Shown here: positions 34,749-47,650 of the stretch, piece by piece
Layout of the letters: every line of letters starts with the position of its first letter
How positions within the stretch are numbered: position 1 is the stretch's first letter
Source of the DNA: a virus
Virus record (IMG/VR): IMGVR_UViG_3300047198_000026
Span: 1 to 64,000 of that record
Reading direction: 5' to 3' (one strand)
Length of the DNA: 64,000 nt
Notes under the pieces: generated by a model
What the model was told of the DNA's origin: nothing
Seen by the model: only the letters and a program-made list of their open reading frames with translations
Databases searched by the model: none
Position numbers and translations under genes: made by a program

Positions 34749-36749
34749 TTGGGAAATTTTGGTAACTATATTTACCGACCATCATTCGGAGCCTCGGGGA
34801 CATCTGAATACACCAACTTTGATACGGGATTGGCAAATGTAGACACAGAGGTTTCTTCAGGAGCTTATCATCGTCAGTTAACCACTAATGCTCATGGACT
34901 GACCTTTACTGGCCCAGGGGTAGGTGGGGGATTGGATGCTGATAAAGTAGATGGCTATCATGCTGCCTCCTTTTTGTTATCCGGGGGTATTGCAACTAGT
35001 GCTAGTGACTCTGCTAGGCTGGCAGGAGTCCTACCAGCAGGATATCTCTTGTCAGGAGGTACTTCTTTAAGTGCCTCTGACTCAGCCCGACTAGCAGGTA
35101 ACCTTTCGTCTGCTTTCCTTTTGTCAGGGGGGACAGCCTTAAGTGCCACTGACTCTTCTAGACTAGCTGGTAATCTTTCTACAGCTTTCTTAACAGTTGG
35201 TGGGTCAGCAGGTGACTCTGCCTTATTACAGGGAAACTTGGCGTCAGCCTTTCTGGGTGCCTCATCCAATGCTGTCAGTGCTAATGACTCTGCCAGACTG
35301 GCAGGTAACCTTTCGACAGCCTTCTTAGGAGCCAGTTCTAACGCAGTCAGTGCAAATGACTCTGTTAGACTTAATGGTAAACTTGATACGGCTTTCCTAG
35401 CCTATGATGCTAATGCAGTTAGTGCCAATGACTCCTCACGATTAGGGGGTAACCTACCTTCCGTATACACCAGGAAAGACGGCACAGTTGCCTTTACAGA
35501 CACGTTCTCTGGTACTAATGCCTATTTTACGGGAACGTTATCAGCCACTGCCTTATCAGCCGCTAACGTCTATACCACAGGCAACGTTGGCATAGGGACA
35601 GGGAGTCCTGCCCACACTCTAGATGTCAATGGCATTATGTCAGGTAGTACAGTCCTTGCTACTACCTTTTCAGGTACTAATGTCTATGCCACCACAATCA
35701 CGGCTAGTACAATGAGTGCCTCTGACTCTTTCCTCTTACTTGGTAAGACATTGGCAGAGGTAGTGGCCAGTGGGGGTGGTGCTGGAGACATGATGTCTGA
35801 TGGCACAGTTGCCTTCACAGACATGATGTCAGGTACCAGTGCTTACTTCTCTTCTTCCTTGTCTGCTTCGAAGTTTAGTGGGACGTCAACCAGTGCTGAC
35901 GATTCTACCTTACTATTTGGTAAGACATTGGCACAAGTAGTGGCCAGTGGGGGTGGGGGTTCAGGAGATGTTAAGTCTGATGGTACTGTTGCCTTTACTG
36001 ACATGCTGTCAGGTACTAGTGCCTACTTCTCGTCTTCAGTATCAGCTTCCAAGTTTAGTGGGACATCAACCAGTGCTGACGATTCCACCTTATTATTTGG
36101 AAAAACCTTGGCAGAGGTAGTGGCCAGTGGGGGTGGAGGAGCTGGAGATGTTAAGTCTGATGGTACTGTTGCCTTTACTGACATGCTGTCAGGTACCAGT
36201 GCTTACTTTTCGTCAACCATATCGGCAGCAGGGTTCTCTGGAACAGCAGCCAGTGCTTCTGACTCAGCCATGTTACAGGGGAATCTTGCGTCAGCATTCT
36301 TAGGAGCCAGTTCTACGGCTTTATCCGCCAATGATTCCACCCTATTATTTGGTAAAACATTGGCACAGGTAGTAGCCAGTGGTGCTGCATGTATAGTTTG
36401 GAGCGTCCCAGGAACTTTAGTTGCAAATGCAACAGTTTCAGTATGTTCTCAATTTTATATACCATTTGATTGTACTGCGGTAGGCGTGAATTTAATTGTT
36501 ACAACTACTCCAGGAACTAATGCAGACATAATAGATATCCATTATGGAGCAGCAGGAGGGATTGGAACAACTATTTTTAGTACGAAACCACAGATTAATG
36601 CTGGTGCATATACTGGTGGGGGTGCGGCAGCGTTTTCGGAAACGGCCCTTGCTGCAGGCAACATGTTAACAATGTTTATTGACCAAATCGGAGCAGCTGG
36701 AAATGAAGGAAAATTCCTTACTGTAGAGCTGAAAGTGAGCGTGCCATAA
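34749..36749 (+). CDS. Tail fibre/spike protein with internal repeats
   Basis: GLDADKVDG, GNVGIGT..P..TLDVNG; DSARLAG repeats and three about 60-aa repeats. Confidence 0.8.
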   Translation: MGNFGNYIYRPSFGASGTSEYTNFDTGLANVDTEVSSGAYHRQLTTNAHGLTFTGPGVGGGLDADKVDGYHAASFLLSGGIATSASDSARLAGVLPAGYLLSGGTSLSASDSARLAGNLSSAFLLSGGTALSATDSSRLAGNLSTAFLTVGGSAGDSALLQGNLASAFLGASSNAVSANDSARLAGNLSTAFLGASSNAVSANDSVRLNGKLDTAFLAYDANAVSANDSSRLGGNLPSVYTRKDGTVAFTDTFSGTNAYFTGTLSATALSAANVYTTGNVGIGTGSPAHTLDVNGIMSGSTVLATTFSGTNVYATTITASTMSASDSFLLLGKTLAEVVASGGGAGDMMSDGTVAFTDMMSGTSAYFSSSLSASKFSGTSTSADDSTLLFGKTLAQVVASGGGGSGDVKSDGTVAFTDMLSGTSAYFSSSVSASKFSGTSTSADDSTLLFGKTLAEVVASGGGGAGDVKSDGTVAFTDMLSGTSAYFSSTISAAGFSGTAASASDSAMLQGNLASAFLGASSTALSANDSTLLFGKTLAQVVASGAACIVWSVPGTLVANATVSVCSQFYIPFDCTAVGVNLIVTTTPGTNADIIDIHYGAAGGIGTTIFSTKPQINAGAYTGGGAAAFSETALAAGNMLTMFIDQIGAAGNEGKFLTVELKVSVP

Positions 36750-37042
36750 TGGGAATGCCAAGTTGTATATGCGACATGGCTGTAAATACTTGTTCATGTA
36801 ATGTGGCTGTATATGATTGTTCATGTAATCAGACTACATACGGCTCATGTATTTGTTATTCAACATGTGCAAGTGCATATCACACCTGCTACAAGGATTT
36901 CGAATGTGGTTGTTTTTGGTTTTGGTATAGTTGTAGTGTATGCTACAATACAGTTTATGGTTGTAGTGTATGCTACAATACAGTTTATGGTTGTAATTGT
37001 TATAATCTAAAATATGCTCCAGATGTTTGGTTGTTTTATTAG
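36749..37042 (+). CDS. Cys/Tyr-rich repeat peptide, putative radical-SAM substrate
   Basis: 18 Cys in 97 aa in CxC/CxxC-x4-Y units; TAATG overlap with the fibre gene. Confidence 0.75.
   Translation: MGMPSCICDMAVNTCSCNVAVYDCSCNQTTYGSCICYSTCASAYHTCYKDFECGCFWFWYSCSVCYNTVYGCSVCYNTVYGCNCYNLKYAPDVWLFY
36931..36990 (+). repeat. Perfect 30-bp tandem duplication (CSVCYNTVYG twice)
   Basis: TTGTAGTGTATGCTACAATACAGTTTATGG twice. Confidence 0.95.
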
Positions 37043-37051
37043 GAGATAAAT

Positions 37052-37720
37052 ATGTTGCAGGAAATTGAAATCAAAAGAATGTTACCAATGGGCGGAATTA
37101 CAATCGAGAATTTTGTTTACAAAGATGTAGCCGATACATCCGAAGAGACGAGGGCTGCATTTCAGAAAGAGGTGGGACAATGGAAAGAAGATAACAAAGA
37201 ATTATTAAATAAAGCTAGGGAGACTATGCAAACATATGCGACACCTCCACTTTTATGGGCAGCTGCTGTTTACATATTTTTAAGAGAAGAACTTGTCGGC
37301 ATAATATTTTTTGATAAATGGGAAACTCATTTGGAAAATGAGATAACAATGAAATTCCATCCGTCAATTAAATTTAGAGCAACCTTTGATTATGCGTTGT
37401 CTGAAGCTTTATTTAGAGATTACATTTTTGAAAATAATTTAATGAATACTATTTATGCTATCCTTCCGTTATGGAGAAAGGGGAATTCTTTTGAATTTCC
37501 ATGTGCTAAGTCTACAGCACCCTGGACAACTGGTAATCCCTATGATTATTCAACCACTAAAATACTTTCAGAAGATATTAAAAATAACGGAATCATGATT
37601 GAAATACATCAGTCTAAGAAGGATTGGTTTCCTGGAAAGTTTGCACAATTAACCAGGAAAACTTGGCAAATTCCGACAAGCGAGCATACAATCGAATTAC
37701 CAAAGGAGGTAAAGAAATGA
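37052..37720 (+). CDS. rSAM partner protein 1 (possible GNAT-like fold)
   Basis: Paralog of 42158..42874; ATGA-coupled to rSAM A1. Confidence 0.65.
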   Translation: MLQEIEIKRMLPMGGITIENFVYKDVADTSEETRAAFQKEVGQWKEDNKELLNKARETMQTYATPPLLWAAAVYIFLREELVGIIFFDKWETHLENEITMKFHPSIKFRATFDYALSEALFRDYIFENNLMNTIYAILPLWRKGNSFEFPCAKSTAPWTTGNPYDYSTTKILSEDIKNNGIMIEIHQSKKDWFPGKFAQLTRKTWQIPTSEHTIELPKEVKK

Positions 37721-38787
37721 GCAGTTATGCATTGATCTGTCACATTTTTATGACCTATGGATGTAACCGTAATTGTGAAGGGTGTTATACTAATCTGCAG
37801 GCAGATAGAAATTTGAAAATGTCAATAAAGACAGCTGATGATGTGGCGAAATGGCTCGTAAACTTAGCCAAAGTAGAGGAAGCAGAATTGTTTTCATTTC
37901 CGATACTTGGTGGGGAACCTTTAATGAATGCTGATGTGCTGTTTCATCTGATAGCGACTTTGCAAAGAGATTTACCAAAACATCTGAAAAATGTCCGAGC
38001 AAGGACAGGGGCGTCGGGAGTCAATGTAAAGAATGAGGATCGTCTCTTTATTCTATTTACTAACGGAGATTATTTGACGGAAGAAAATCTTAGAAGAATA
38101 GAAGCCCATAGATTGTTGGCCTACATTAATCCTACAGATGATAATCTCATCAGTGTGGAAGAGAAGGTTAAGAAATTGAAAGCAGTATGCGGGCATTGCA
38201 ATTTAGCAATTACACTGAATAAAAAGAATATGCCAAGGCTACCAGAGTTGGTTGATATTGCTATTAGAAATGGTGGAGTAACACGGATCAGTCGGATGTA
38301 TGATGGTGGTAGAGACCCAAATTACGTAAAGGAATATGGAAGACAGATGCACAAGGTATTTGATATGCTATTAGCTGCTCCAGTTCCCATGCATCCAAAT
38401 TGGATAGTTGAGAGCACCTGGGTGACCTGGGACAAACCATCAAATCCAAATGGTTGCGGAAAATGGTCTATTCATATGGGCCCAGACGGAGTAATCCGAA
38501 GTTGTAATGCTGATTACAGTACTAAGATTGGTTCAATCTACACTCATTCCAGATTGTCTGATTTTAAGTTTACTCATAGATGGAGTGCAAAGAATTTACC
38601 TGAGTGTCAAGGCTGTGAATTTATAACCTTTTGTCAAGGTGGTTGTCCTTATAGTCGTAAGTTGACTTACGGAACTTACGACAAGAGAACTCCATTTTGT
38701 GAGGAGCTGAAAACTCTTTACCCAAGGGTGCTTGAATTGGCTAAAAAATGGAAAGAATACCAAGAACGTATAATGAAAGGAGAATAA
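37717..38787 (+). CDS. Radical SAM/SPASM protein, class A copy 1
   Basis: CNRNCEGC, GGEP, TNG; SPASM CG...G.IRSC...CQGC...CQGGCP...C. Confidence 0.92.
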   Translation: MSSYALICHIFMTYGCNRNCEGCYTNLQADRNLKMSIKTADDVAKWLVNLAKVEEAELFSFPILGGEPLMNADVLFHLIATLQRDLPKHLKNVRARTGASGVNVKNEDRLFILFTNGDYLTEENLRRIEAHRLLAYINPTDDNLISVEEKVKKLKAVCGHCNLAITLNKKNMPRLPELVDIAIRNGGVTRISRMYDGGRDPNYVKEYGRQMHKVFDMLLAAPVPMHPNWIVESTWVTWDKPSNPNGCGKWSIHMGPDGVIRSCNADYSTKIGSIYTHSRLSDFKFTHRWSAKNLPECQGCEFITFCQGGCPYSRKLTYGTYDKRTPFCEELKTLYPRVLELAKKWKEYQERIMKGE

Positions 38788-38789
38788 AT

Positions 38790-39965
38790 ATGTTAGTTTC
38801 CAATGCGTCATTAAACTTGACTCAAGAATGTAATTTAAGATGTGAATATTGTTTTACGTATGGGCACACATCTAAACGGATGAGTTGGGCTGTCGCAAAA
38901 AAGAGCGTAGATTTTCTTTTCAATAATGCTAAACGTACAAAAGAAAATAAAATGGTTAGAATAGATTTTTGGGGAGGGGAGCCACTATTAGAATGGAATT
39001 TGTTGAAGAAGATAACTTTGTATGCAGAAAGTGTATCGAAAAGAACCACCATTCCTGTGCATTTTGGTGGAACGACCAATGGTACACTCCTAACTGAAGA
39101 GAAATTTACATTTTTGGGAAAACATGGTATTAAGTTTTTGGTATCTCTTGATGGCACGGCAGAAAGTCACAATAAATATAGGGTATTTAGATCTGGTAGG
39201 GGGTCTCACGCTCTAATAGTAAAAAATATGAAGAAGGTTTTGAAGAAATGGCCTGATTATGCTGTAAGATTATCCCCTTATCCAGAAAGTATTAAACGAT
39301 TTTATAACGACATTAAATTCTTAATAGATCTGGGTTTTAGGAATGTAATGTATAGTCCTGTATTTGAGGCAAACTGGAAAGAGAAAGATTGGAATAAATG
39401 GGAAGATGAAGGTTATAAAGTAGTGGATTTATTATCCGAAAAGAAGAGAGAAGGGATCAATATTTTTATTCATCAGTTTGATGAATTTTGTGGTCAGGAG
39501 TTGGATCAAAAATACCCTTGTGGAGCGGGGAGGCATTATATTGGGATTGACATAGATGGAGGAATATATCCTTGTCATCGATTTTGTAAATTTGATGGAA
39601 AATCTTGGAAAGAAAAGGAAACTTGTATCGGTCATGTAGACTTGGGTATCATTAATCTTGAATTTATAGATAGGTTTATTAATTTTAAAACCTGTGAAGG
39701 ATGCGAGTTTGCTAACACTACTCCTTGCTGTGGTGGTTGCCCAGCGACTAATTATGATCTCACAGGAGATATAAATACACCCACAGATAAGAATTGTAGA
39801 TGGATTAAGGTACAAACCAAAATTTCCAGATACATGATGGAGAAAGAAAATCTGAAAAGAACAACCCCACAAGCGGTTATGGATTTATTAAGACGGCTTG
39901 AAATGCGGGTGGAGCAAATAGAAAAATATATCGAGGATAAAAACAATTTATCCACGGTTACTTGA
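38790..39965 (+). CDS. Radical SAM/SPASM protein, class B copy 1
   Basis: CNLRCEYC, FWGGEPLL, TTNGTLL, VSLDG, PCGAG...IYPCH...CEGC...CCGGCP. Confidence 0.93.
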   Translation: MLVSNASLNLTQECNLRCEYCFTYGHTSKRMSWAVAKKSVDFLFNNAKRTKENKMVRIDFWGGEPLLEWNLLKKITLYAESVSKRTTIPVHFGGTTNGTLLTEEKFTFLGKHGIKFLVSLDGTAESHNKYRVFRSGRGSHALIVKNMKKVLKKWPDYAVRLSPYPESIKRFYNDIKFLIDLGFRNVMYSPVFEANWKEKDWNKWEDEGYKVVDLLSEKKREGINIFIHQFDEFCGQELDQKYPCGAGRHYIGIDIDGGIYPCHRFCKFDGKSWKEKETCIGHVDLGIINLEFIDRFINFKTCEGCEFANTTPCCGGCPATNYDLTGDINTPTDKNCRWIKVQTKISRYMMEKENLKRTTPQAVMDLLRRLEMRVEQIEKYIEDKNNLSTVT

Positions 39966-40079: not shown

Positions 40080-41330
40080 ATGACTGAATTTCCAATTACC
40101 AGATGTAGTATTAATTTGACTAGGGCCTGCAATCTTAAGTGTGCCTTTTGCTTTACCTACGGATGCCGTCCTGGCAGAATGGGATGGGAAACGGCCAAGA
40201 GATCGGTCGACTTCCTATTTCACAATGCCGAGAAGGCCACCATCCAAGAAGGAAAGACTGTTGAGATAGGATTTTGGGGAGGGGAGCCACTATTAGAATG
40301 GGAATTATTGAAGAGGATAACCCTGTATGCGAAGAAGACGAAACCCCCATCAGTGAATCTGATGTTTGGTGGAACGACCAATGGTACACTCCTGACCCCT
40401 GACAAATTTGCCTTCCTGGATGAACACAAGATATTCTTTATGGTCAGTATAGACGGGCAAGAGAAGAGCCACAACCTATACCGTAAGTTCCATGATGGAA
40501 GGGGTTCACATTCAGTGGTAATGAAGAACCTGGAGTCCATCCTAAAGAAATGGCCTTTCTATAGAGCCCGGTTGTCTCCCAGTGTGGAAACAGTCCCTGA
40601 CTTCTTTGAGAATATGAAATACCTCTTTGACTTTGGATTCGAATATGTTATGTTCTCTCCTGTCTATGAAGGCAATTGGACTCCTGAGGTGTGGAAGACA
40701 TATGAGGACCAATGTAAGTTGGTAGTGGATTACATGGTGTCAGAGAAGGCCAAGGGAAGGAATTTGAAAGTAGAACACTTCGAATCCTATAAGGGTTCTG
40801 ACAATTCTAAATGGCCATGTGGGGCTGGAAGGTTCTATGCGGGAATAGACATTGATGGGGCCATCTATCCTTGCCACAGATTTAACAAGTTTAATGACAT
40901 GCGACCATGGACTGAAAAGGAAGTTTGTATTGGACATGTGGATGTTGGAATCACCAAACCAGACTTTAGAAAGTTATTCACCACAGACTGGAAGCCTGAA
41001 TGTGGAGAGTGTCCAAGACTTAAGGACACACCTTGTCATGGGGGATGTTACGCAGTGAACTTCGACTTTACAGGAAAGATTAATACACCCCATCTAGGAC
41101 TTTGTTCCTATGTTGAGATGCAAAGAAATGTCTCAAAATACTTGGAAGAGAAACTTCCTTCCCCACCCCAACAGGGAACAAGGGGTTGTATTTGTTATAA
41201 TATGTGTTACGCTGAGGGAACAGACCAAGAGATTACTCATAGGGACAAATCGAATGATATGACGTGCGTGTGCTATAACGCCCAATATAATGGGCCTTTG
41301 GATGAGAAAATTGCTAGGAGGCTTATATAA
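40080..41330 (+). CDS. Radical SAM/SPASM protein, class B copy 2, with Cys-rich C-terminal extension
   Basis: CNLKCAFC, FWGGEPLL, PCGAG, IYPCH, CGEC...CHGGC; tail CICYNMCY...CVCYNAQY. Confidence 0.93.
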   Translation: MTEFPITRCSINLTRACNLKCAFCFTYGCRPGRMGWETAKRSVDFLFHNAEKATIQEGKTVEIGFWGGEPLLEWELLKRITLYAKKTKPPSVNLMFGGTTNGTLLTPDKFAFLDEHKIFFMVSIDGQEKSHNLYRKFHDGRGSHSVVMKNLESILKKWPFYRARLSPSVETVPDFFENMKYLFDFGFEYVMFSPVYEGNWTPEVWKTYEDQCKLVVDYMVSEKAKGRNLKVEHFESYKGSDNSKWPCGAGRFYAGIDIDGAIYPCHRFNKFNDMRPWTEKEVCIGHVDVGITKPDFRKLFTTDWKPECGECPRLKDTPCHGGCYAVNFDFTGKINTPHLGLCSYVEMQRNVSKYLEEKLPSPPQQGTRGCICYNMCYAEGTDQEITHRDKSNDMTCVCYNAQYNGPLDEKIARRLI

Positions 41331-42137
41331 GTGATAGCCATTCTTATTCAAAAAGAGCCCTATCCTATCCATGAGGGCCATAAGGCCGTAATCAACTATG
41401 CCCGGTCTTTGGGTGATCCGATAGTTATTATGCCCCCTCACGCAGGTATGTGGCATAAATACCTAAAAGGGGGAATAGAGGAAGTAGGAGAAGAGAATAT
41501 TGATGTTAGGATAAACTCTATAAAAGAATTAGGTATTCCAGTTGAGCGAATGCGCCCTGTCTCGGTTCACAAGGATATAAGACAAAAGGCATTAGATTTT
41601 GCCTCTGCCTTTATGGAACCTTATAAAGACACATTAATTTTAGACAGGTATATTCAAGTGGCAACCTTGCTTGTGGCAGGGACACACCTAAGACGTAAGA
41701 TATGGAAAGACCAGATGTTGAAGTCCAAAATCCCCATTGAAGCCGCGGCTAGGGGTCCGTCAGTGATATCCTTCTTTCTTGCCCAAGTAAATCCCAAGTT
41801 GGGTAGGCCCCCTTGTTATGTGTACCCTAAAATAGTTAAAGACCCTCGTACAGGAATTCAATTCCAGAGTTCTATAAATCAGATTTTGGGTTCACACAGG
41901 CCAGCCTTAGAAAGACTTCCCATGGTGCTTGGAGAATTTAAGGATAGGTTGAAAGTGGGAAGAAATTTAGAATTAGAGAAGGAGATTAATGGATCTTACT
42001 ACTATACTCCCTGGAAAATCCAGGAGATTGCTGTGTTTGAAGGGGGTATGGTTCCTGGAAGATTAGAAGTTGTATCCTTTAGGTTTCCCTGTTTAAGAGG
42101 GAGTATACTAATTGAGGTAACTGAGTATTATCAGTAA
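41331..42137 (+). CDS. HxGH nucleotidyltransferase-superfamily protein, pantothenate-synthetase-like
   Basis: IHEGH near the N-terminus; IVKDPRTGIQFQSS resembles PanC IVRExDGLAxSSRN. Confidence 0.55.
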   Translation: MIAILIQKEPYPIHEGHKAVINYARSLGDPIVIMPPHAGMWHKYLKGGIEEVGEENIDVRINSIKELGIPVERMRPVSVHKDIRQKALDFASAFMEPYKDTLILDRYIQVATLLVAGTHLRRKIWKDQMLKSKIPIEAAARGPSVISFFLAQVNPKLGRPPCYVYPKIVKDPRTGIQFQSSINQILGSHRPALERLPMVLGEFKDRLKVGRNLELEKEINGSYYYTPWKIQEIAVFEGGMVPGRLEVVSFRFPCLRGSILIEVTEYYQ

Positions 42138-42157: not shown

Positions 42158-42874
42158 ATGTTTCAGTTAAAGGGTTGTTCAAGGTTAATACCTAGGGGAG
42201 GAGTTGTCATTCGTGGGATGTCCTATATAGACGTCAATGATGTCCTTCTTGAAGACAGGATGGCAACTAAGAAGTTTTTCGCTGAAGATTATGAGTACGG
42301 TGAGGCCGTTAGGAGAGGGTTAGCTCATTATAGAACTATGGAAATAGGTAGGCAATTTATTGTTTACGTTTATAAAAATCTGGACCTTCTAGGATGCCTC
42401 CTAAGTTTTGAACTACTTAATAACATGGATGGATATGGTAAGGGAGACTTTAATCATTCCCAATTAATCTATCCTAAATACAGGCATACCCAATTTTCTA
42501 GGTACTCATCACTAAACTTTAGGCACATGATGTTCCGGTCTGGAGTAGCCAATAAAATATATGTCTATGCTCCCTCTTCTAGATCAAAATCGCATTCCTT
42601 TCTAGATGCGATGGATGTGTCTAAAATGCCTTGTGCATCAGGATTACCATTTGAATTTATTGATATCCGATTTTCGGAGCACATCTCAGTTTCAAAAAGA
42701 TTACATCTTGAGGGAGTCCCTTTTCTTATTCTGGAATTTGATGGTGAGAAATATAGGAAGCTGACTTTAGATGATTTTGCAGAGAGTGTCCCCAATAAGG
42801 GTAAGGAACTTGTAGCCCAGTGGTTATCTGAGGCCGACCATGCGTCTGAATTGGTCAGAGGAGAGGTAAAATGA
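42158..42874 (+). CDS. rSAM partner protein 2 (possible GNAT-like fold)
   Basis: Paralog of 37052..37720; IYPKYRHT resembles GNAT motif A; ATGA-coupled to rSAM A2. Confidence 0.65.
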   Translation: MFQLKGCSRLIPRGGVVIRGMSYIDVNDVLLEDRMATKKFFAEDYEYGEAVRRGLAHYRTMEIGRQFIVYVYKNLDLLGCLLSFELLNNMDGYGKGDFNHSQLIYPKYRHTQFSRYSSLNFRHMMFRSGVANKIYVYAPSSRSKSHSFLDAMDVSKMPCASGLPFEFIDIRFSEHISVSKRLHLEGVPFLILEFDGEKYRKLTLDDFAESVPNKGKELVAQWLSEADHASELVRGEVK

Positions 42875-43905
42875 TGCCTGCGTTGATGCTATATATAAAT
42901 ATCTCTAATGCTTGTAATCGGCAGTGTGATCATTGCTATTCCTCCAATACTGGTGAGAAGATGAGTAAAGAAACAGTTGGGGAAGTGGTTAAGTGGGCTA
43001 AAGGTATTTGCGAGGAGGAGAAAGTTAAATATCTCAAATTAATTTTCTTAGGAGGGGAACCTCTAAATAATATAGATAACCTTTTGCTGATGGTTGACTT
43101 ATTCAATAAGCACCTTCCTCAGCTTCAAGATCCTTTTTGGGATACTAAGTATATGTTGTCCACGAATGGTGATTTGATCACTGATTCTATTCTAAGAGAA
43201 CTGAAGAGCAGGAGAATTTGGGTATCGCTGAATCCGTCAAACAGTAGTATGGGAGACCTTGAAGATAAGATATTAAAGGTTAAAGAAGTGAATGGAGGGT
43301 GTGCATTACTTACGGTGTTAAACGACGCGAATTTGCCAAGAGCCGTGGATCTGGCTAAATTGGCAGTTAGGCATGCCTGTTTTATTAGAATGAATAGGAT
43401 GTTTCAAGGGTCATCAGATCCAGAATACATTAGAGAGTACGGTAGTCAATTGGGCAAAATGATGGACATCTTCCTTGCTGCCAAGAGGGTAGCCTGGCCT
43501 AACTGGATGGTAGATTCTACTATGCCTGTAAGGTTTGCTGACATTTATTCCCAGACAACCAGAAATTGTTATTCTTGTGGTGAGTGGCTCTTTACCATCG
43601 ATTGGGATGGGATGATAAGAAGTTGTAACGCTGATCCTGATACGGTTATTGGGTATATTAGAACTCACAAGCATAGGAAGGATTTTAAATTCCCCCATAG
43701 GTGGAGTGCTGCAAATCTTCCAGAGTGTCAAGGCTGTAAGTGGATTGTTTTGTGTCAGGGTGGATGCCCTTACTGTAGAAAAGTAGCGTATGGTACGTAC
43801 GACAAGAAAACTCCATTTTGTGAGGTGCACAGGGATATCTGGCCTAAACTTATGGAACTTACGGAGAGATGGAAATTAAGTCATAGTGGGTTGTTTACAC
43901 GATGA
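42871..43905 (+). CDS. Radical SAM/SPASM protein, class A copy 2
   Basis: CNRQCDHC, GGEP; HRWSA.NLPECQGC...CQGGCPY shared with A1. Confidence 0.92.
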   Translation: MMPALMLYINISNACNRQCDHCYSSNTGEKMSKETVGEVVKWAKGICEEEKVKYLKLIFLGGEPLNNIDNLLLMVDLFNKHLPQLQDPFWDTKYMLSTNGDLITDSILRELKSRRIWVSLNPSNSSMGDLEDKILKVKEVNGGCALLTVLNDANLPRAVDLAKLAVRHACFIRMNRMFQGSSDPEYIREYGSQLGKMMDIFLAAKRVAWPNWMVDSTMPVRFADIYSQTTRNCYSCGEWLFTIDWDGMIRSCNADPDTVIGYIRTHKHRKDFKFPHRWSAANLPECQGCKWIVLCQGGCPYCRKVAYGTYDKKTPFCEVHRDIWPKLMELTERWKLSHSGLFTR

Positions 43906-43915
43906 GAGGAAAAAT

Positions 43916-44335
43916 ATGGACAATAAATATGTAGCAGGCTTGTTTGATGGAGAAGGGTACATAACAATATCTAGGTATAAAAGACCAGAAACCGGTACCA
44001 TGCACTATAGTCCTCAAATTGGAATATCAATGTGTTGGAAACCAACTCTAGAAGAGATGAAAGAACAGTTTGGTGGGTCTCTTCGTAAGCACAAGTTGTT
44101 GAAAGGGAAGACGATCTGGAGATGGGTAATCTATAATGGACAGGCCAAGAACTTTTTAGAAGTCATCCTACCTGAACTAAGGGAAAAGAGGTCTCAGGCA
44201 GTTCTAATTATGGATTATTATATAAATCTTGAATCTAGGGGTAAGTCTAAAATTCGGTTATCCGAGTCTGAAGTTGGAACTAGAGAGAAGTACTATCGCG
44301 ATCTCAAAGGTCTAAAGAAAATGGAGTGGGTGTAA
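43916..44335 (+). CDS. LAGLIDADG homing endonuclease (free-standing)
   Basis: YVAGLFDGEGYI...FGG...WRW...ILPELREKRSQA. Confidence 0.85.
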   Translation: MDNKYVAGLFDGEGYITISRYKRPETGTMHYSPQIGISMCWKPTLEEMKEQFGGSLRKHKLLKGKTIWRWVIYNGQAKNFLEVILPELREKRSQAVLIMDYYINLESRGKSKIRLSESEVGTREKYYRDLKGLKKMEWV

Positions 44336-45784: not shown

Positions 45785-47650
45785 ATGTCCTTATTTAGAA
45801 CAGGATATCCGTCATCTATCCACAAAATATATGAAATTCCTGGTGTAACCCAAGAAAACTTTGATGCTATAGAAGACTGGTCTGGTATTGAGCATTCAAG
45901 TTTGACCTCTGCTTCTTCTGGGCAACATGTGGCTGGGGGAGCAGGAGTCGTTTATGTGGGTAAAACACTGGACATTTCTGAATTATCTCCGGCCTCTGGG
46001 GCTATGGTTAGGAATCGTCAGACGGGTACCTTTGGGAAATACGACGGATTAGACTTCTATGGGATATGGGCAAATAAGTACTCTCGGGCTCGGGCCACCT
46101 TGTCAGGGGCGGTATTTCCCCTAACGGCAGACTGGCAAGGTAGGTTTGACTGTAACCAGATTTTGTGGGACTCCTTACATGAATTTCACATTGATCCAGC
46201 GGACGCATTATCTGGATCATTTACTCCCTGTGCCGATGGGTTCTATCATGTTATTGCTAGTTTTGCCATCTCAGCAGCTAATACACAAGTAACAACTAAC
46301 ACATCACGACCCTCTGGAAATGGAACTGTACAGTGGATTCCCAGTGGATATGGGGTAGGTTATAATTATAAGAACGTGTGGGAATATCCTAGTGTTAGCG
46401 ACGAAATGCACTATTTTAATGAGTCAGCAACATCTGGAGTATATGATTCCTTTAATCTATCTCCCGCAGCCACTGGAGGACCTGCAGGATCTTCTTCTGT
46501 TGTTATAGGAGCAACTTGGAGAGTTCGGCTTCGGAATGGAAGTTGTGCTTGTAATAATACGTGTTACCATGATATTACCACCTGCACTTGTAATAATTCC
46601 TGCTATGAAGATACGGCCTGCACCTCCTGTGATATGACATGTTACCAACAGGGAAGTTGCACATGTAATAACTCGTGCTATGGTCAGGCTGGATGTACCT
46701 GTAATAACACCTGTTATAGCCAAACGTGCACGACCTGTAATGCCACCTGTTATAGTCAAACGTGCACATGTAATTATACCTTATATGGACCTCATTGTAA
46801 CACATGCTACATTACGTGCTATTGGTTTGCTTGGTGCAAAGGTGATCAGAGCTGCACCTGTAATAATACCTGTTATGGGGGATTCACCTGCACCTGTAAT
46901 AATTCATGCTATGGACAATCCTGTACCTGTAATAGCACTTGTTATCAACAGCAATGTGCCTCTTGTTATAATACTTGTTATGGGTATAGTGGATCTTGCA
47001 CCTGTAATAGTTCGTGTTATGGACAAGGCTCTTGCACTTGTAATAATTCTTGCTATGGTGATACCCCTTGTTCCTGTGATGTAACCACCTACGGGTATTC
47101 TCATTCGTGTGAATGTGATGCGTCTCAGTATCTAGGAGTTTTCCAAATTGCTCCTGAGATATATGATTCCGCTTTAGGTTGGGCAAGGGGGACACTAACA
47201 TCCATAGCTGGAACAGCATATGGAGAATATACATATGTATGGGACACTGACCCTTTTAGAACCGCCGACTGGACAGCTGAGACTGCCTCAGGAATTACAA
47301 GTATAGCATATCGCCTGTTTACTCCCTACACGGCTGCCTGTGGAGTGTCGGCTGATGTGAGCCAATTTTATTTAAGCCAATCTTGGTTTCCTGTAAGACC
47401 CGTGTTGCGTTTGCAGATAGTAACGAATGAAGCAAATGCGTCCTCTTCGGTGGTGGCCCAGACTCAAGAGACCATTGCAGAAGCAGGGGCAGAAAGTTAT
47501 CAAACTGTCTCTCTATCCACTATAGTTCCTCTCAAAGGCGGAGACAGGCTTAGTTTTAAGGTTAGGAAAACCCGAATTGATGATATGAGTACAAATAATT
47601 ATGCCTATTCCTTTGTGAGTGTGCATCGGTTAGGGGGTCAGTGGATTTAA
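45785..47650 (+). CDS. Virion appendage protein with C1q-like domain interrupted by a Cys-rich repeat insert (paralog 3)
   Basis: ENFDAIEDW..IEH...SGQH; FTPCADGFYHV...[insert]...VPLKGGDRLSF. Confidence 0.75.
   Translation: MSLFRTGYPSSIHKIYEIPGVTQENFDAIEDWSGIEHSSLTSASSGQHVAGGAGVVYVGKTLDISELSPASGAMVRNRQTGTFGKYDGLDFYGIWANKYSRARATLSGAVFPLTADWQGRFDCNQILWDSLHEFHIDPADALSGSFTPCADGFYHVIASFAISAANTQVTTNTSRPSGNGTVQWIPSGYGVGYNYKNVWEYPSVSDEMHYFNESATSGVYDSFNLSPAATGGPAGSSSVVIGATWRVRLRNGSCACNNTCYHDITTCTCNNSCYEDTACTSCDMTCYQQGSCTCNNSCYGQAGCTCNNTCYSQTCTTCNATCYSQTCTCNYTLYGPHCNTCYITCYWFAWCKGDQSCTCNNTCYGGFTCTCNNSCYGQSCTCNSTCYQQQCASCYNTCYGYSGSCTCNSSCYGQGSCTCNNSCYGDTPCSCDVTTYGYSHSCECDASQYLGVFQIAPEIYDSALGWARGTLTSIAGTAYGEYTYVWDTDPFRTADWTAETASGITSIAYRLFTPYTAACGVSADVSQFYLSQSWFPVRPVLRLQIVTNEANASSSVVAQTQETIAEAGAESYQTVSLSTIVPLKGGDRLSFKVRKTRIDDMSTNNYAYSFVSVHRLGGQWI
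46544..47131 (+). repeat. 16 degenerate C-x(1,2)-C-x3-[C/x]-Y repeats (46 Cys in 196 aa)
   Basis: Manual count; consensus CTCNNSCY. Confidence 0.95.

What the first reader, a model, noticed from the sequence alone, without database searches (positions are those of the whole stretch)
36749..37042. Leaderless Cys/Tyr repeat peptide coupled to the tail fibre
Seen: 18 Cys in 97 aa starting at residue 6, so no normal RiPP leader. Units include CSCNVAVY, CSCNQTTY, CSVCYNTVY twice (perfect 30-bp duplication) and CNCYNLKY, around an aromatic FWFWY patch that parallels YWFAW in the 45785 insert. Inference: a stand-alone fibre-tip adhesin whose length is still changing by unit duplication.
Basis: partly seen in the sequence, partly recalled or inferred. 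Interest (0 to 1): 0.8.

Follow-up and report, generated by a model that had tools for sequence, protein, structure and literature searches.

The report
Enzyme-stapled cysteine hairpin beside fibre knob
An uncultured sediment phage encodes, directly after its tail-fibre gene, a tiny protein that is one-fifth cysteine; it probably folds back on itself, is cross-linked by four neighbouring iron-sulfur enzymes and rides on the fibre's end knob, but no experiment has tested any of this.

Summary
Window 36749-37042(+) is a 97-aa ORF with 18 Cys and 13 Tyr. Its ATG overlaps the fibre gene's stop codon (TAATG), and it contains an exact 30-bp tandem duplication.

It is a real gene. I found five relatives of 59-204 aa. 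All share the ends MGMPxCxCD and KYAPDVW[LF][FL]Y, and they differ only in the number of CxC[N/D]xxxY units. Unit counts are equal on each side of a Lys-containing midpoint: 2+2, 3+3, 4+4, 8+8. That pattern points to a fold-back, two-armed ladder.

In all four loci with context, the gene follows the same ~115-aa fibre knob domain, while the fibre shafts differ. In three of the four, radical SAM/SPASM genes follow it. The same ladder occurs as an insert in tail proteins (P0005 here, and a J-like central fibre in L007).

My best reading is a leaderless substrate of the adjacent enzymes that docks on the knob through its conserved ends.

Length change by unit duplication is supported. One independent sediment sample carries a one-copy allele, and two others carry the two-copy form.

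This scan has already reported radical-SAM/cysteine-ladder tail modules on this genome and on other phage DNA. I found no paper describing them.

The parts
34749..36749 (+). Tail-fibre gene (666 aa). The shaft consists of SASDSARLAGNL-type repeats. The C-terminal knob domain lies at about 36351-36746.
   Evidence: Translation is. The knob is 56%, 54% and 30% identical to L004, L005 and L003. The AF2 model is a beta-sandwich (pLDDT 61). Its best PDB match is the tail fibres of Agrobacterium phage 7-7-1 (E 7e-4), and 62 BFVD matches are mostly tail-fibre or minor tail proteins.
36749..37042 (+). Cys/Tyr ladder peptide, 97 aa, with 8 units arranged 4+4.
36749..36775 (+). Conserved N-terminal end, MGMPSCICD.
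   Evidence: Conserved in 5 of 6 family members.
36777..36829 (+). Older tandem duplication in the N arm (units 2 and 3, CSCNVAVYD and CSCNQTTYGS).
   Evidence: TRF: period 27, 2.0 copies, 88%.
36887..36904 (+). Proposed turn or midpoint, CYKDFE, followed by CGCFWFWY.
   Evidence: A Lys-containing midpoint separates equal numbers of units in nearly all ladder proteins parsed. This is an inference.
36930..36989 (+). Exact 30-bp tandem duplication in the C arm (units 6 and 7, CSVCYNTVYG twice). Its copy number is polymorphic in nature.
   Evidence: In run X3 one contig crosses the site with 30 bases left out; X2 and X4 hold a 60-bp piece at 36930-36989.
37016..37039 (+). Conserved C-terminal tail, APDVWLFY (with the preceding KY). 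I propose it as the docking or recognition element.
   Evidence: KYAPDVW is invariant in all 6 members. The tail is absent from ladder forms that are inserted in larger proteins.
37052..37720 (+). Partner protein 1 (222 aa), with no known family. It is a paralogue of 42158-42874.
   Evidence: BLASTP E 2e-12 against P0007. A homologue stands between the ladder gene and the rSAM in L005. There are no Pfam, PHROG, NCBIfam or PDB hits.
37624..38787 (+). Radical SAM/SPASM enzyme A1. The real start is probably the ATG at 37717, which overlaps the partner gene's stop.
   Evidence: Pfam Radical_SAM and Fer4_12, plus the SPASM domain TIGR04085. CxxxCxxC lies at residue 47.
38748..39965 (+). Radical SAM/SPASM enzyme B1, of the PapB-like thioether-forming type.
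   Evidence: NF047865 at 251.8 bits, E 1e-74, below the cut-off of 340.
40080..41330 (+). Radical SAM/SPASM enzyme B2 (PapB-like). Its own C-terminal tail carries two ladder-like units.
   Evidence: NF047865 at 232.6 bits. CICYNMCY and CVCYNAQY sit at residues 370 and 396.
41331..42137 (+). 268-aa protein conserved within the cassette. It has only a weak nucleotidyltransferase-like hit.
   Evidence: Homologues lie next to the partner and rSAM A genes in L006 and L007. TIGR00125 scores E 0.0024, below its cut-off.
42158..42874 (+). Partner protein 2 (238 aa).
42871..43905 (+). Radical SAM/SPASM enzyme A2.
   Evidence: It is 43-59% identical to the rSAM of L005, L006 and L007.
45785..47650 (+). 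621-aa tail-region protein carrying an 8+8-unit ladder insert at residues 254-449. It is the second likely client of the enzymes.
   Evidence: It matches the L005 stand-alone ladder at E 1e-31.

Best explanation
The ORF encodes a short member (97 aa, 4+4 units) of a rare phage protein family, the stand-alone cysteine ladders.

Shown:
- It is a conserved gene with fixed ends (MGMPxCxCD and KYAPDVW[LF][FL]Y).
- The number of CxC[N/D]xxxY units varies between members.
- It always lies directly after the gene or domain for one particular fibre knob.
- Leader-independent radical SAM/SPASM enzymes are usually encoded next to it.

Inferred:
- The chain folds back at a Lys-containing turn, so that the two arms pair rung by rung. 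This would explain why the unit numbers on each side are equal.
- The PapB-like enzymes B1 and B2, and the A-type enzymes with their partner proteins, staple the ladder with Cys-derived cross-links. These are most likely thioethers to Asn/Asp or neighbouring residues.
- The short conserved ends, which only the stand-alone forms possess, dock the stapled hairpin on the fibre knob. It would then project from the fibre end as a rigid appendage.
- Translational coupling (TAATG) would keep its amount tied to that of the fibre.
- Adding or losing a 9- or 10-residue rung changes its length. Both arms of this gene carry a tandem duplication, and one of them is polymorphic in nature.
For: - Gene reality and family: five homologues with conserved ends (alignments). 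SD-like sequences precede the gene in L003 and L005, and the same TAATG overlap occurs in L004.
- Link to the knob: 4 of 4 loci with context (window, L003, L004, L005). In them the knob is fused to three unrelated shafts or stands alone as a 148-aa protein. The knob model resembles distal domains of phage tail fibres.
- Link to the enzymes: four rSAM/SPASM genes with CxxxCxxC lie downstream here. An rSAM follows directly in L003, and a partner plus rSAM follows in L005.
- The wider ladder family also sits by an rSAM in L013 and L007.
- B1 and B2 align to SCIFF, CcpM and QhpD-type maturase models only from model position ~76-94 onward. They therefore lack the N-terminal region of those models, which fits a substrate without a leader.
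- The same unit occurs as inserts in tail proteins: P0005 and a central-fibre J-like protein (phrog_31, E 5e-35).
- Equal-arm rule: 2+2, 3+3, 3+3, 4+4, 4+4, 8+8, 8+8, 7+7, 5+5, 6+6.
- Duplications lie in both arms, and the copy number is polymorphic.
- Precedent: rSAM/SPASM enzymes install thioethers on Cys-repeat proteins (CrpC/CrpA, PMC13692751) and on Asn acceptors (NxxcB, PMC9389541).
Against: - There are no data on translation, modification or virion content, and no RNA-holding run is listed.
- AF2 gives no usable model of the peptide (pLDDT 31.8), so the fold-back rests on unit counts alone.
- The X3 allele would be 4+3, which does not fit a strict equal-arm rule.
- In L004 the next gene is an MFS-like membrane protein, not an rSAM. 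That would suit export of a free peptide, although the contig ends there and the hit is below Pfam's cut-off.
- Most units of this peptide lack the third Cys (position 7) that is typical of the longer ladders.
- Every enzyme match is below its family's curated cut-off, so the chemistry cannot be named.
- The context sample is small: four loci.
Confidence: 0.5

Rival explanations
1. It is a free RiPP-type product. The peptide is cross-linked by the rSAM enzymes and released by lysis or a transporter as a bioactive or signalling molecule. Its position after the fibre gene would only reflect late-operon expression.
For: It is small, lies next to PapB-like rSAM/SPASM genes, and is followed in L004 by an MFS-like gene. 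The conserved C-terminal tail could be a follower-type recognition sequence.
Against: - There is no leader.
- No RRE-bearing N-terminus aligns in B1 or B2.
- No peptidase or ABC exporter appears among the neighbours.
- The same ladder is built into tail proteins.
- Linkage to one fibre knob domain holds in 4 of 4 loci.
- The 204-aa member in L005 is too long for a typical RiPP.
Confidence: 0.17
2. It is a non-virion helper: an assembly factor for the fibre knob (a chaperone-like template), or a decoy or primer substrate that regulates the rSAM enzymes. It would be discarded before the particle is complete.
For: Genes directly downstream of fibre genes are often fibre assembly proteins (established knowledge of Tfa and gp38-type genes). 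It is translationally coupled to the fibre. B2 carries ladder-like units in its own tail, which hints at enzyme-substrate mimicry.
Against: Known fibre chaperones are not Cys ladders, and no PHROG or Pfam family matches. A variable unit number (4 to 16) is not obviously useful for a chaperone. The inserted forms are permanent parts of tail proteins.
Confidence: 0.12
3. It is a metal- or iron-sulfur-binding small protein (metallothionein-like) that buffers or supplies iron-sulfur clusters for the four rSAM enzymes. In that case it is not their substrate.
For: It is 18.6% Cys, arranged in CxC and CxxC pairs. Four enzymes with three expected clusters each are encoded next to it.
Against: There is no match to any metal-binding family. 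The conserved Asn/Asp and Tyr positions and the equal-arm architecture are shared with inserts in structural proteins. Linkage is to the knob gene rather than to the number of enzymes: L005 has a 204-aa ladder but only one rSAM.
Confidence: 0.06
4. It is a spurious ORF or an untranslated repeat.
For: There is no expression data. The SD upstream of the window copy is weak.
Against: The frame, the ends and in-frame length changes are conserved across six sequences from different samples. The natural indel is 30 bp, so it stays in frame. SD-like sites precede the gene in L003 and L005.
Confidence: 0.03

Closest known systems
CrpA/CrpC of Methanococcus voltae (TIGR04463-type rSAM/SPASM enzyme acting on a Cys-repeat protein; PMC13692751)
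   Same: A SPASM radical SAM enzyme installs thioether (ranthionine) links on a repetitive Cys-rich protein, not on a short leader-core peptide. The substrate gene lies next to the enzyme gene.
   Different: - CrpA has a 47-residue N-terminal leader-like region and CrpC has an RRE. Here there is no leader and no RRE region aligns.
- The repeat differs: a 17-residue CxxQ/D unit there, a 9-12-residue CxC[N/D]xxxY unit here.
- TIGR04463 scores only 35-68 bits against a cut-off of 525.
- The context there is cellular, not a phage tail operon.
PapB/PapA (freyrasin) and other ranthipeptide or SCIFF systems (CteB/CteA, NxxcB/NxxcA)
   Same: The best family match for B1 and B2 is PapB (252 and 233 bits). 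The substrates are Cys-rich with Asp/Asn near Cys. NxxcB links Cys to an Asn beta-carbon in NxxC, a spacing that is present in the CxCNxxC units of the long ladders.
   Different: - Scores are below the equivalog cut-off of 340.
- The precursor has no leader.
- The cluster contains no protease or exporter.
- There are four enzymes plus two unknown partner proteins.
- Most units of this peptide lack the Cys of NxxC.
CXXX-repeat peptide maturase system (NCBIfam TIGR04115/TIGR04119)
   Same: An rSAM maturase is paired with a short-period Cys repeat target. B1 and B2 hit TIGR04115 at 175 and 152 bits, and B2 hits TIGR04119.
   Different: The hits are below the cut-offs of 350 and 150. The repeat here is CxC[N/D]xxxY with a two-armed layout, not CXXX.
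Accessory proteins encoded downstream of phage fibre genes (T2-type gp38 adhesin, Tfa-type assembly proteins)
   Same: The gene sits immediately after the fibre gene, and the module travels with the fibre's distal domain while the shafts are exchanged.
   Different: There is no sequence or family similarity. Those proteins are not Cys-rich and are not enzyme-modified. Binding to the fibre is not shown here.

Membership tests
Ranthipeptide/sactipeptide-type RiPP precursor | N-terminal leader (or a defined follower) that is recognised and later removed | tested here: not met
   The first Cys is at residue 6 in every family member. Only an 8-residue conserved C-terminal tail exists.
Ranthipeptide/sactipeptide-type RiPP precursor | Adjacent rSAM/SPASM maturase | tested here: met
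   Four rSAM/SPASM genes lie within 7 kb downstream on the same strand. The same holds in L003 and L005.
Ranthipeptide/sactipeptide-type RiPP precursor | RRE domain in the maturase or in a separate protein | tested here: inconclusive
   B1 and B2 align to RRE-bearing maturase models only from model position ~76-94 onward. The partner proteins match nothing known.
Ranthipeptide/sactipeptide-type RiPP precursor | Leader peptidase and/or exporter in the cluster | tested here: not met
   None appears among the ORFs of 30-59 kb that I scanned. L004 has only an MFS-like gene below Pfam's cut-off.
Ranthipeptide/sactipeptide-type RiPP precursor | Cys-to-carbon thioether links in the product | not testable with these tools
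   This needs mass spectrometry of co-expressed peptide.
PapB family ranthipeptide maturase (NF047865), for B1 and B2 | Score above the curated equivalog cut-off (340 bits) | tested here: not met
   251.8 and 232.6 bits.
TIGR04463 (CrpC-type) maturase | Score above the curated cut-off (525 bits) | tested here: not met
   The hits score 35, 67.6 and 43.8 bits for A1, B1 and A2.
Stand-alone cysteine-ladder family defined here (MGMP...KYAPDVW) | Conserved N end, conserved C tail, and CxC[N/D]xxxY units in equal numbers around a Lys-containing midpoint | tested here: met
Stand-alone cysteine-ladder family defined here (MGMP...KYAPDVW) | Gene directly downstream of the ...LTVELKV knob domain | tested here: met
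   Seen in the window, L003, L004 and L005.
Fibre-tip adhesin (gp38-like) | Presence in the virion, bound to the fibre tip; receptor binding | not testable with these tools
   No multimer prediction is available. The phage is uncultured and has no proteome.
Fibre-tip adhesin (gp38-like) | Sequence or profile similarity to known adhesin or chaperone families | tested here: not met
   There are no PHROG, Pfam, NCBIfam, PDB or Atlas hits.
Metallothionein-like metal binder | Match to a metallothionein or metal-binding family | tested here: not met

The most novel reading that the evidence does not exclude
Phages make a detachable, enzyme-stapled 'cysteine hairpin' that plugs into a tail-fibre knob through an 8-residue tail. 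It would be a new class of fibre accessory, whose reach is tuned by adding rungs to both arms. In this gene the two duplicated rungs would face each other in the fold-back. The natural 4+3 allele could be the intermediate, caught before the second, compensating duplication.
Probability: 0.3. Interest if true: 0.85.

Novelty: new variant of a known kind. Interest (0 to 1): 0.62.

Why it matters
If this is true, radical SAM peptide chemistry, known from antibiotics and cofactors, is also used by viruses to harden a host-recognition appendage. A 97-residue, leaderless, naturally length-variable substrate with its enzymes in one operon would be a compact test system. It could show how SPASM enzymes recognise substrates without a leader. 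It could also show whether thioether stapling gives phage fibres stability in anoxic sediments. The stand-alone form is far easier to express and to analyse by mass spectrometry than the 621-aa tail protein that carries the same ladder.

Tried and rejected
- blastn of the region against GenBank phages found no match.
- Word-based homologue search of partner protein P0003 found none.
- IMG/VR scans with rSAM B1, with the two-sequence peptide alignment, and with the C-terminal and N-terminal DNA motifs found nothing beyond the L005 record.
- GTDB genome scans with the peptide and knob alignments found no relatives, so there is no prophage and no host clue.
- L002 is a chance hit: an archaeal LamG-type protein that happens to contain KYAPDVWFF.
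- AF2 of the peptide is unusable (pLDDT 31.8), so I ran no fold search on it.
- The ESM Atlas gave no usable hit.
- PDB profile searches for the peptide and the partner found nothing.
- No RNA-holding run is listed for this stretch.
- I considered a programmed frameshift fusing fibre and peptide and rejected it. There is no slippery site at CCATAATGG, and L003 and L005 have separate genes with their own SD-like sites.
- I considered FWFWY as the hairpin midpoint and rejected it in favour of CYKDFE, because only the latter gives equal arms as in the relatives.
- Literature searches for phage rSAM cross-linking of virion proteins found no paper.
Full report
**Observation**

Window 36749-37042(+) translates to a 97-residue protein with 18 Cys and 13 Tyr. 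The first Cys is at residue 6.

The 30-bp duplication is exact. 36930-36959 equals 36960-36989, and the identity runs on to 36995. TRF also reports an older period-27 duplication at 36777-36829 with 88% matches.

The ATG shares a base with the TAA stop of the 666-aa ORF 34749-36749. In six-frame scans of the whole 102.6-kb virus record, only this ORF and ORF 45785-47650 reach 9 or more Cys in 40 residues.

**It is a real gene in a rare family**

- A word-based search of 5.8 billion proteins found one relative, P0004 (59 aa).
- A full HMMER search of 1.84 billion representatives added only P0008 (79 aa).
- A metagenome scan for the back-translated C-terminal motif gave L003 (108 aa) and L004 (79 aa), plus one chance hit, L002.
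- A scan with the fibre-knob alignment gave L005, which holds a 204-aa member.

All six share MGMPxCxCD at the start (L003 is diverged). KYAPDVW, followed by [LF][FL]Y, is invariant at the end. They differ only in the number of internal units. SD-like sequences precede the gene in L003 and L005. L004 has the same TAATG overlap as the window.

In IMG/VR the family occurs only in this record and in the L005 record. It is absent from 185,579 species genomes.

**Context**

The window is the late region of an uncultured phage from freshwater sediment. It has an SU10-type capsid protein and adaptor.

The ORF upstream of the peptide is a fibre, with a repeat shaft and a ~115-aa C-terminal domain. The AF2 model of that domain has moderate confidence (pLDDT 61) and is a beta-sandwich. 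Its best PDB match is the tail fibres of Agrobacterium phage 7-7-1, and it has 62 viral matches, mostly tail-fibre or minor tail proteins.

The same domain precedes the ladder gene in every locus with context:

| Locus | Form of the knob |
|---|---|
| Window | Fused to the SASDSARLAGNL-repeat shaft |
| L004 | Fused to a collagen-like shaft |
| L003 | Fused to a third type of shaft |
| L005 | Separate 148-aa protein |

The knob and the ladder therefore travel as one module while the shafts are exchanged.

Downstream in the window, in order, lie:

- an unknown partner protein;
- rSAM/SPASM A1;
- two PapB-like rSAM/SPASM enzymes, B1 and B2 (252 and 233 bits, below the cut-off of 340);
- a conserved 268-aa protein;
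- a second partner protein;
- rSAM/SPASM A2.

All four enzymes have CxxxCxxC and Cys-rich C-terminal regions. In L003 a B-type rSAM follows the ladder gene directly. In L005 a partner and an A-type rSAM follow it, and no other rSAM is found in that 37.7-kb record, which CheckV rates complete. In L004 the next gene is an MFS-like membrane protein and the contig ends there.

**The ladder is a wider phage module**

The unit CxC[N/D]xx(C)Y occurs in several settings:

- 16 times as an insert in the 621-aa tail-region protein P0005 of this window;
- four times in a 636-aa central-fibre J-like protein of L007/L008, whose record also holds B-type and A-type rSAMs and a partner;
- in at least 18 further proteins of 165-341 aa with other end domains.

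One of those proteins, P0009, lies by a B-type rSAM in a 69-kb viral contig. B2 itself ends with two ladder-like units.

**Architecture**

I parsed the units in 16 proteins. Nearly all have equal numbers on each side of a longer, Lys-containing central unit:

| Protein | Units |
|---|---|
| P0004 | 2+2 |
| L007 insert | 2+2 |
| P0008 | 3+3 |
| L004 | 3+3 |
| L003 | 4+4 |
| P0011 | 4+4 |
| P0020 | 4+4 |
| P0016 | 5+5 |
| P0013 | 6+6 |
| P0009 | 7+7 |
| L005 | 8+8 |
| P0005 | 8+8 |

The exceptions are P0010 (8+4, probably truncated) and P0017, which is irregular; P0012 fits the rule as 5 units, a midpoint and 5 units.

The window peptide is 4+4 if the turn is CYKDFE. This is the main argument for a fold-back, two-armed structure. 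AF2 itself gave no usable model.

In such a fold, units 2 and 3 would face units 7 and 6. Those are exactly the two tandem duplications in the gene: an older one in the N arm and a perfect one in the C arm.

**Length polymorphism**

I laid Logan contigs from four independent sediment metagenomes on the region. In X3, one contig (350 bp, depth 24.5, no other differences) crosses the site with 30 bases left out, which is one copy of CSVCYNTVYG. X2 and X4 instead hold a separate 60-bp piece at 36930-36989, as expected for the two-copy form in a k=31 graph.

This supports ongoing change by unit duplication or loss. The caveat is that contigs, not reads, were available. The X3 allele would be 4+3, which I cannot reconcile with a strict equal-arm rule. 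X2 and X5 also show 36883 C>A (His45Gln).

**Mechanism**

- Shown: the gene family, its fixed ends, its linkage to the knob, and its adjacency to rSAM/SPASM genes.
- Inferred from established rSAM/SPASM chemistry: the enzymes cross-link the ladder's cysteines. The precedents are PapB, CteB and NxxcB (PMC9389541) and CrpC acting on the repeat protein CrpA (PMC13692751).
- B1 and B2 align to RRE-bearing maturase models only from position ~76-94 onward. That fits a substrate without a leader. The partner proteins may supply recognition instead.
- Inferred from comparison: the conserved ends exist only in the stand-alone forms that accompany the knob, and the inserted forms are anchored by their host domains. 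The ends therefore most likely dock the hairpin on the knob.
- Whether it acts as an adhesin, a spacer or a stabiliser cannot be said.

**Rivals**

| Reading | Weight | Main points |
|---|---|---|
| Free RiPP-type product | 0.17 | Favoured by size and by the MFS-like gene of L004. Disfavoured by the lack of leader, protease or exporter, by the knob linkage and by the structural inserts. |
| Non-virion helper or decoy | 0.12 | See Rival explanations. |
| Metal or iron-sulfur binder | 0.06 | See Rival explanations. |
| Spurious ORF | 0.03 | See Rival explanations. |

**Comparison and novelty**

It works like ranthipeptide or CrpA-type maturation, but it fails the membership tests for those families: there is no leader, every enzyme scores below its cut-off, and the repeat differs. 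I found no paper on rSAM modification of phage virion proteins.

Earlier notes of this scan describe the same cassette on this genome, and analogous cysteine-ladder tail modules in other phages. The general idea is therefore not new to the scan. What this report adds:

- the definition of the stand-alone subfamily;
- its obligatory pairing with one knob domain;
- the equal-arm rule extended across the family;
- duplications in both arms of this gene;
- a natural copy-number polymorphism.

Noticed in passing
window 36749-39965: The block from the peptide through partner1, A1 and B1 has 34-39% G+C, against 43.6% for the window and 42-48% for the flanking fibre and B2. This suggests the block arrived separately.
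   Followed up: partly
window 43886-44335: A homing-endonuclease-like gene (LAGLIDADG_1, E 1e-4; phrog_5046 'HNH endonuclease', E 9e-26) sits between rSAM A2 and the tail-protein paralogues.
   Followed up: no
window 41187-41288 (B2 residues 370-403): rSAM B2 ends with two ladder-like units, CICYNMCY and CVCYNAQY, after its SPASM domain. This could be self-modification or substrate mimicry.
   Followed up: partly
L004:2-598 (-): An MFS-like membrane protein (Pfam MFS_1, E 8e-6, below the cut-off) lies 41 nt downstream of the 79-aa ladder gene. The contig ends there, so it is unclear whether the gene is phage or host.
   Followed up: partly
L013:7627-11881: This is a different ladder architecture: a MAQQ[ST]WTDP... 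N-terminal domain, a 7+7 ladder and a YEYPWT end (P0009). It lies 2 kb from a 479-aa B-type rSAM, next to ORFs that look like terminase and portal genes, in a 69-kb viral contig.
   Followed up: partly
L002:1-483 and 543-2369: Tandem archaeal-looking LamG-type proteins end in a motif such as YKYAPDVWFFDYRN, which resembles the peptide's tail. I judge this to be chance, because there are no cysteine units.
   Followed up: partly
window 36883: C>A (His45Gln in the peptide, just before the proposed turn) appears in contigs of two independent sediment runs, X2 and X5.
   Followed up: no
window 36000-36140: Contigs from several runs diverge or break within the fibre shaft repeats, with loose ends at 36085 and 36121. 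This suggests strain variation or recombination in the shaft upstream of the conserved knob.
   Followed up: no
L006 (G002, 101.8 kb): This is the closest relative of the A2/partner2/268-aa cassette (59% identity) and has two A-type rSAMs. No cysteine ladder is found anywhere in the held record, which is about 53% complete.
   Followed up: partly
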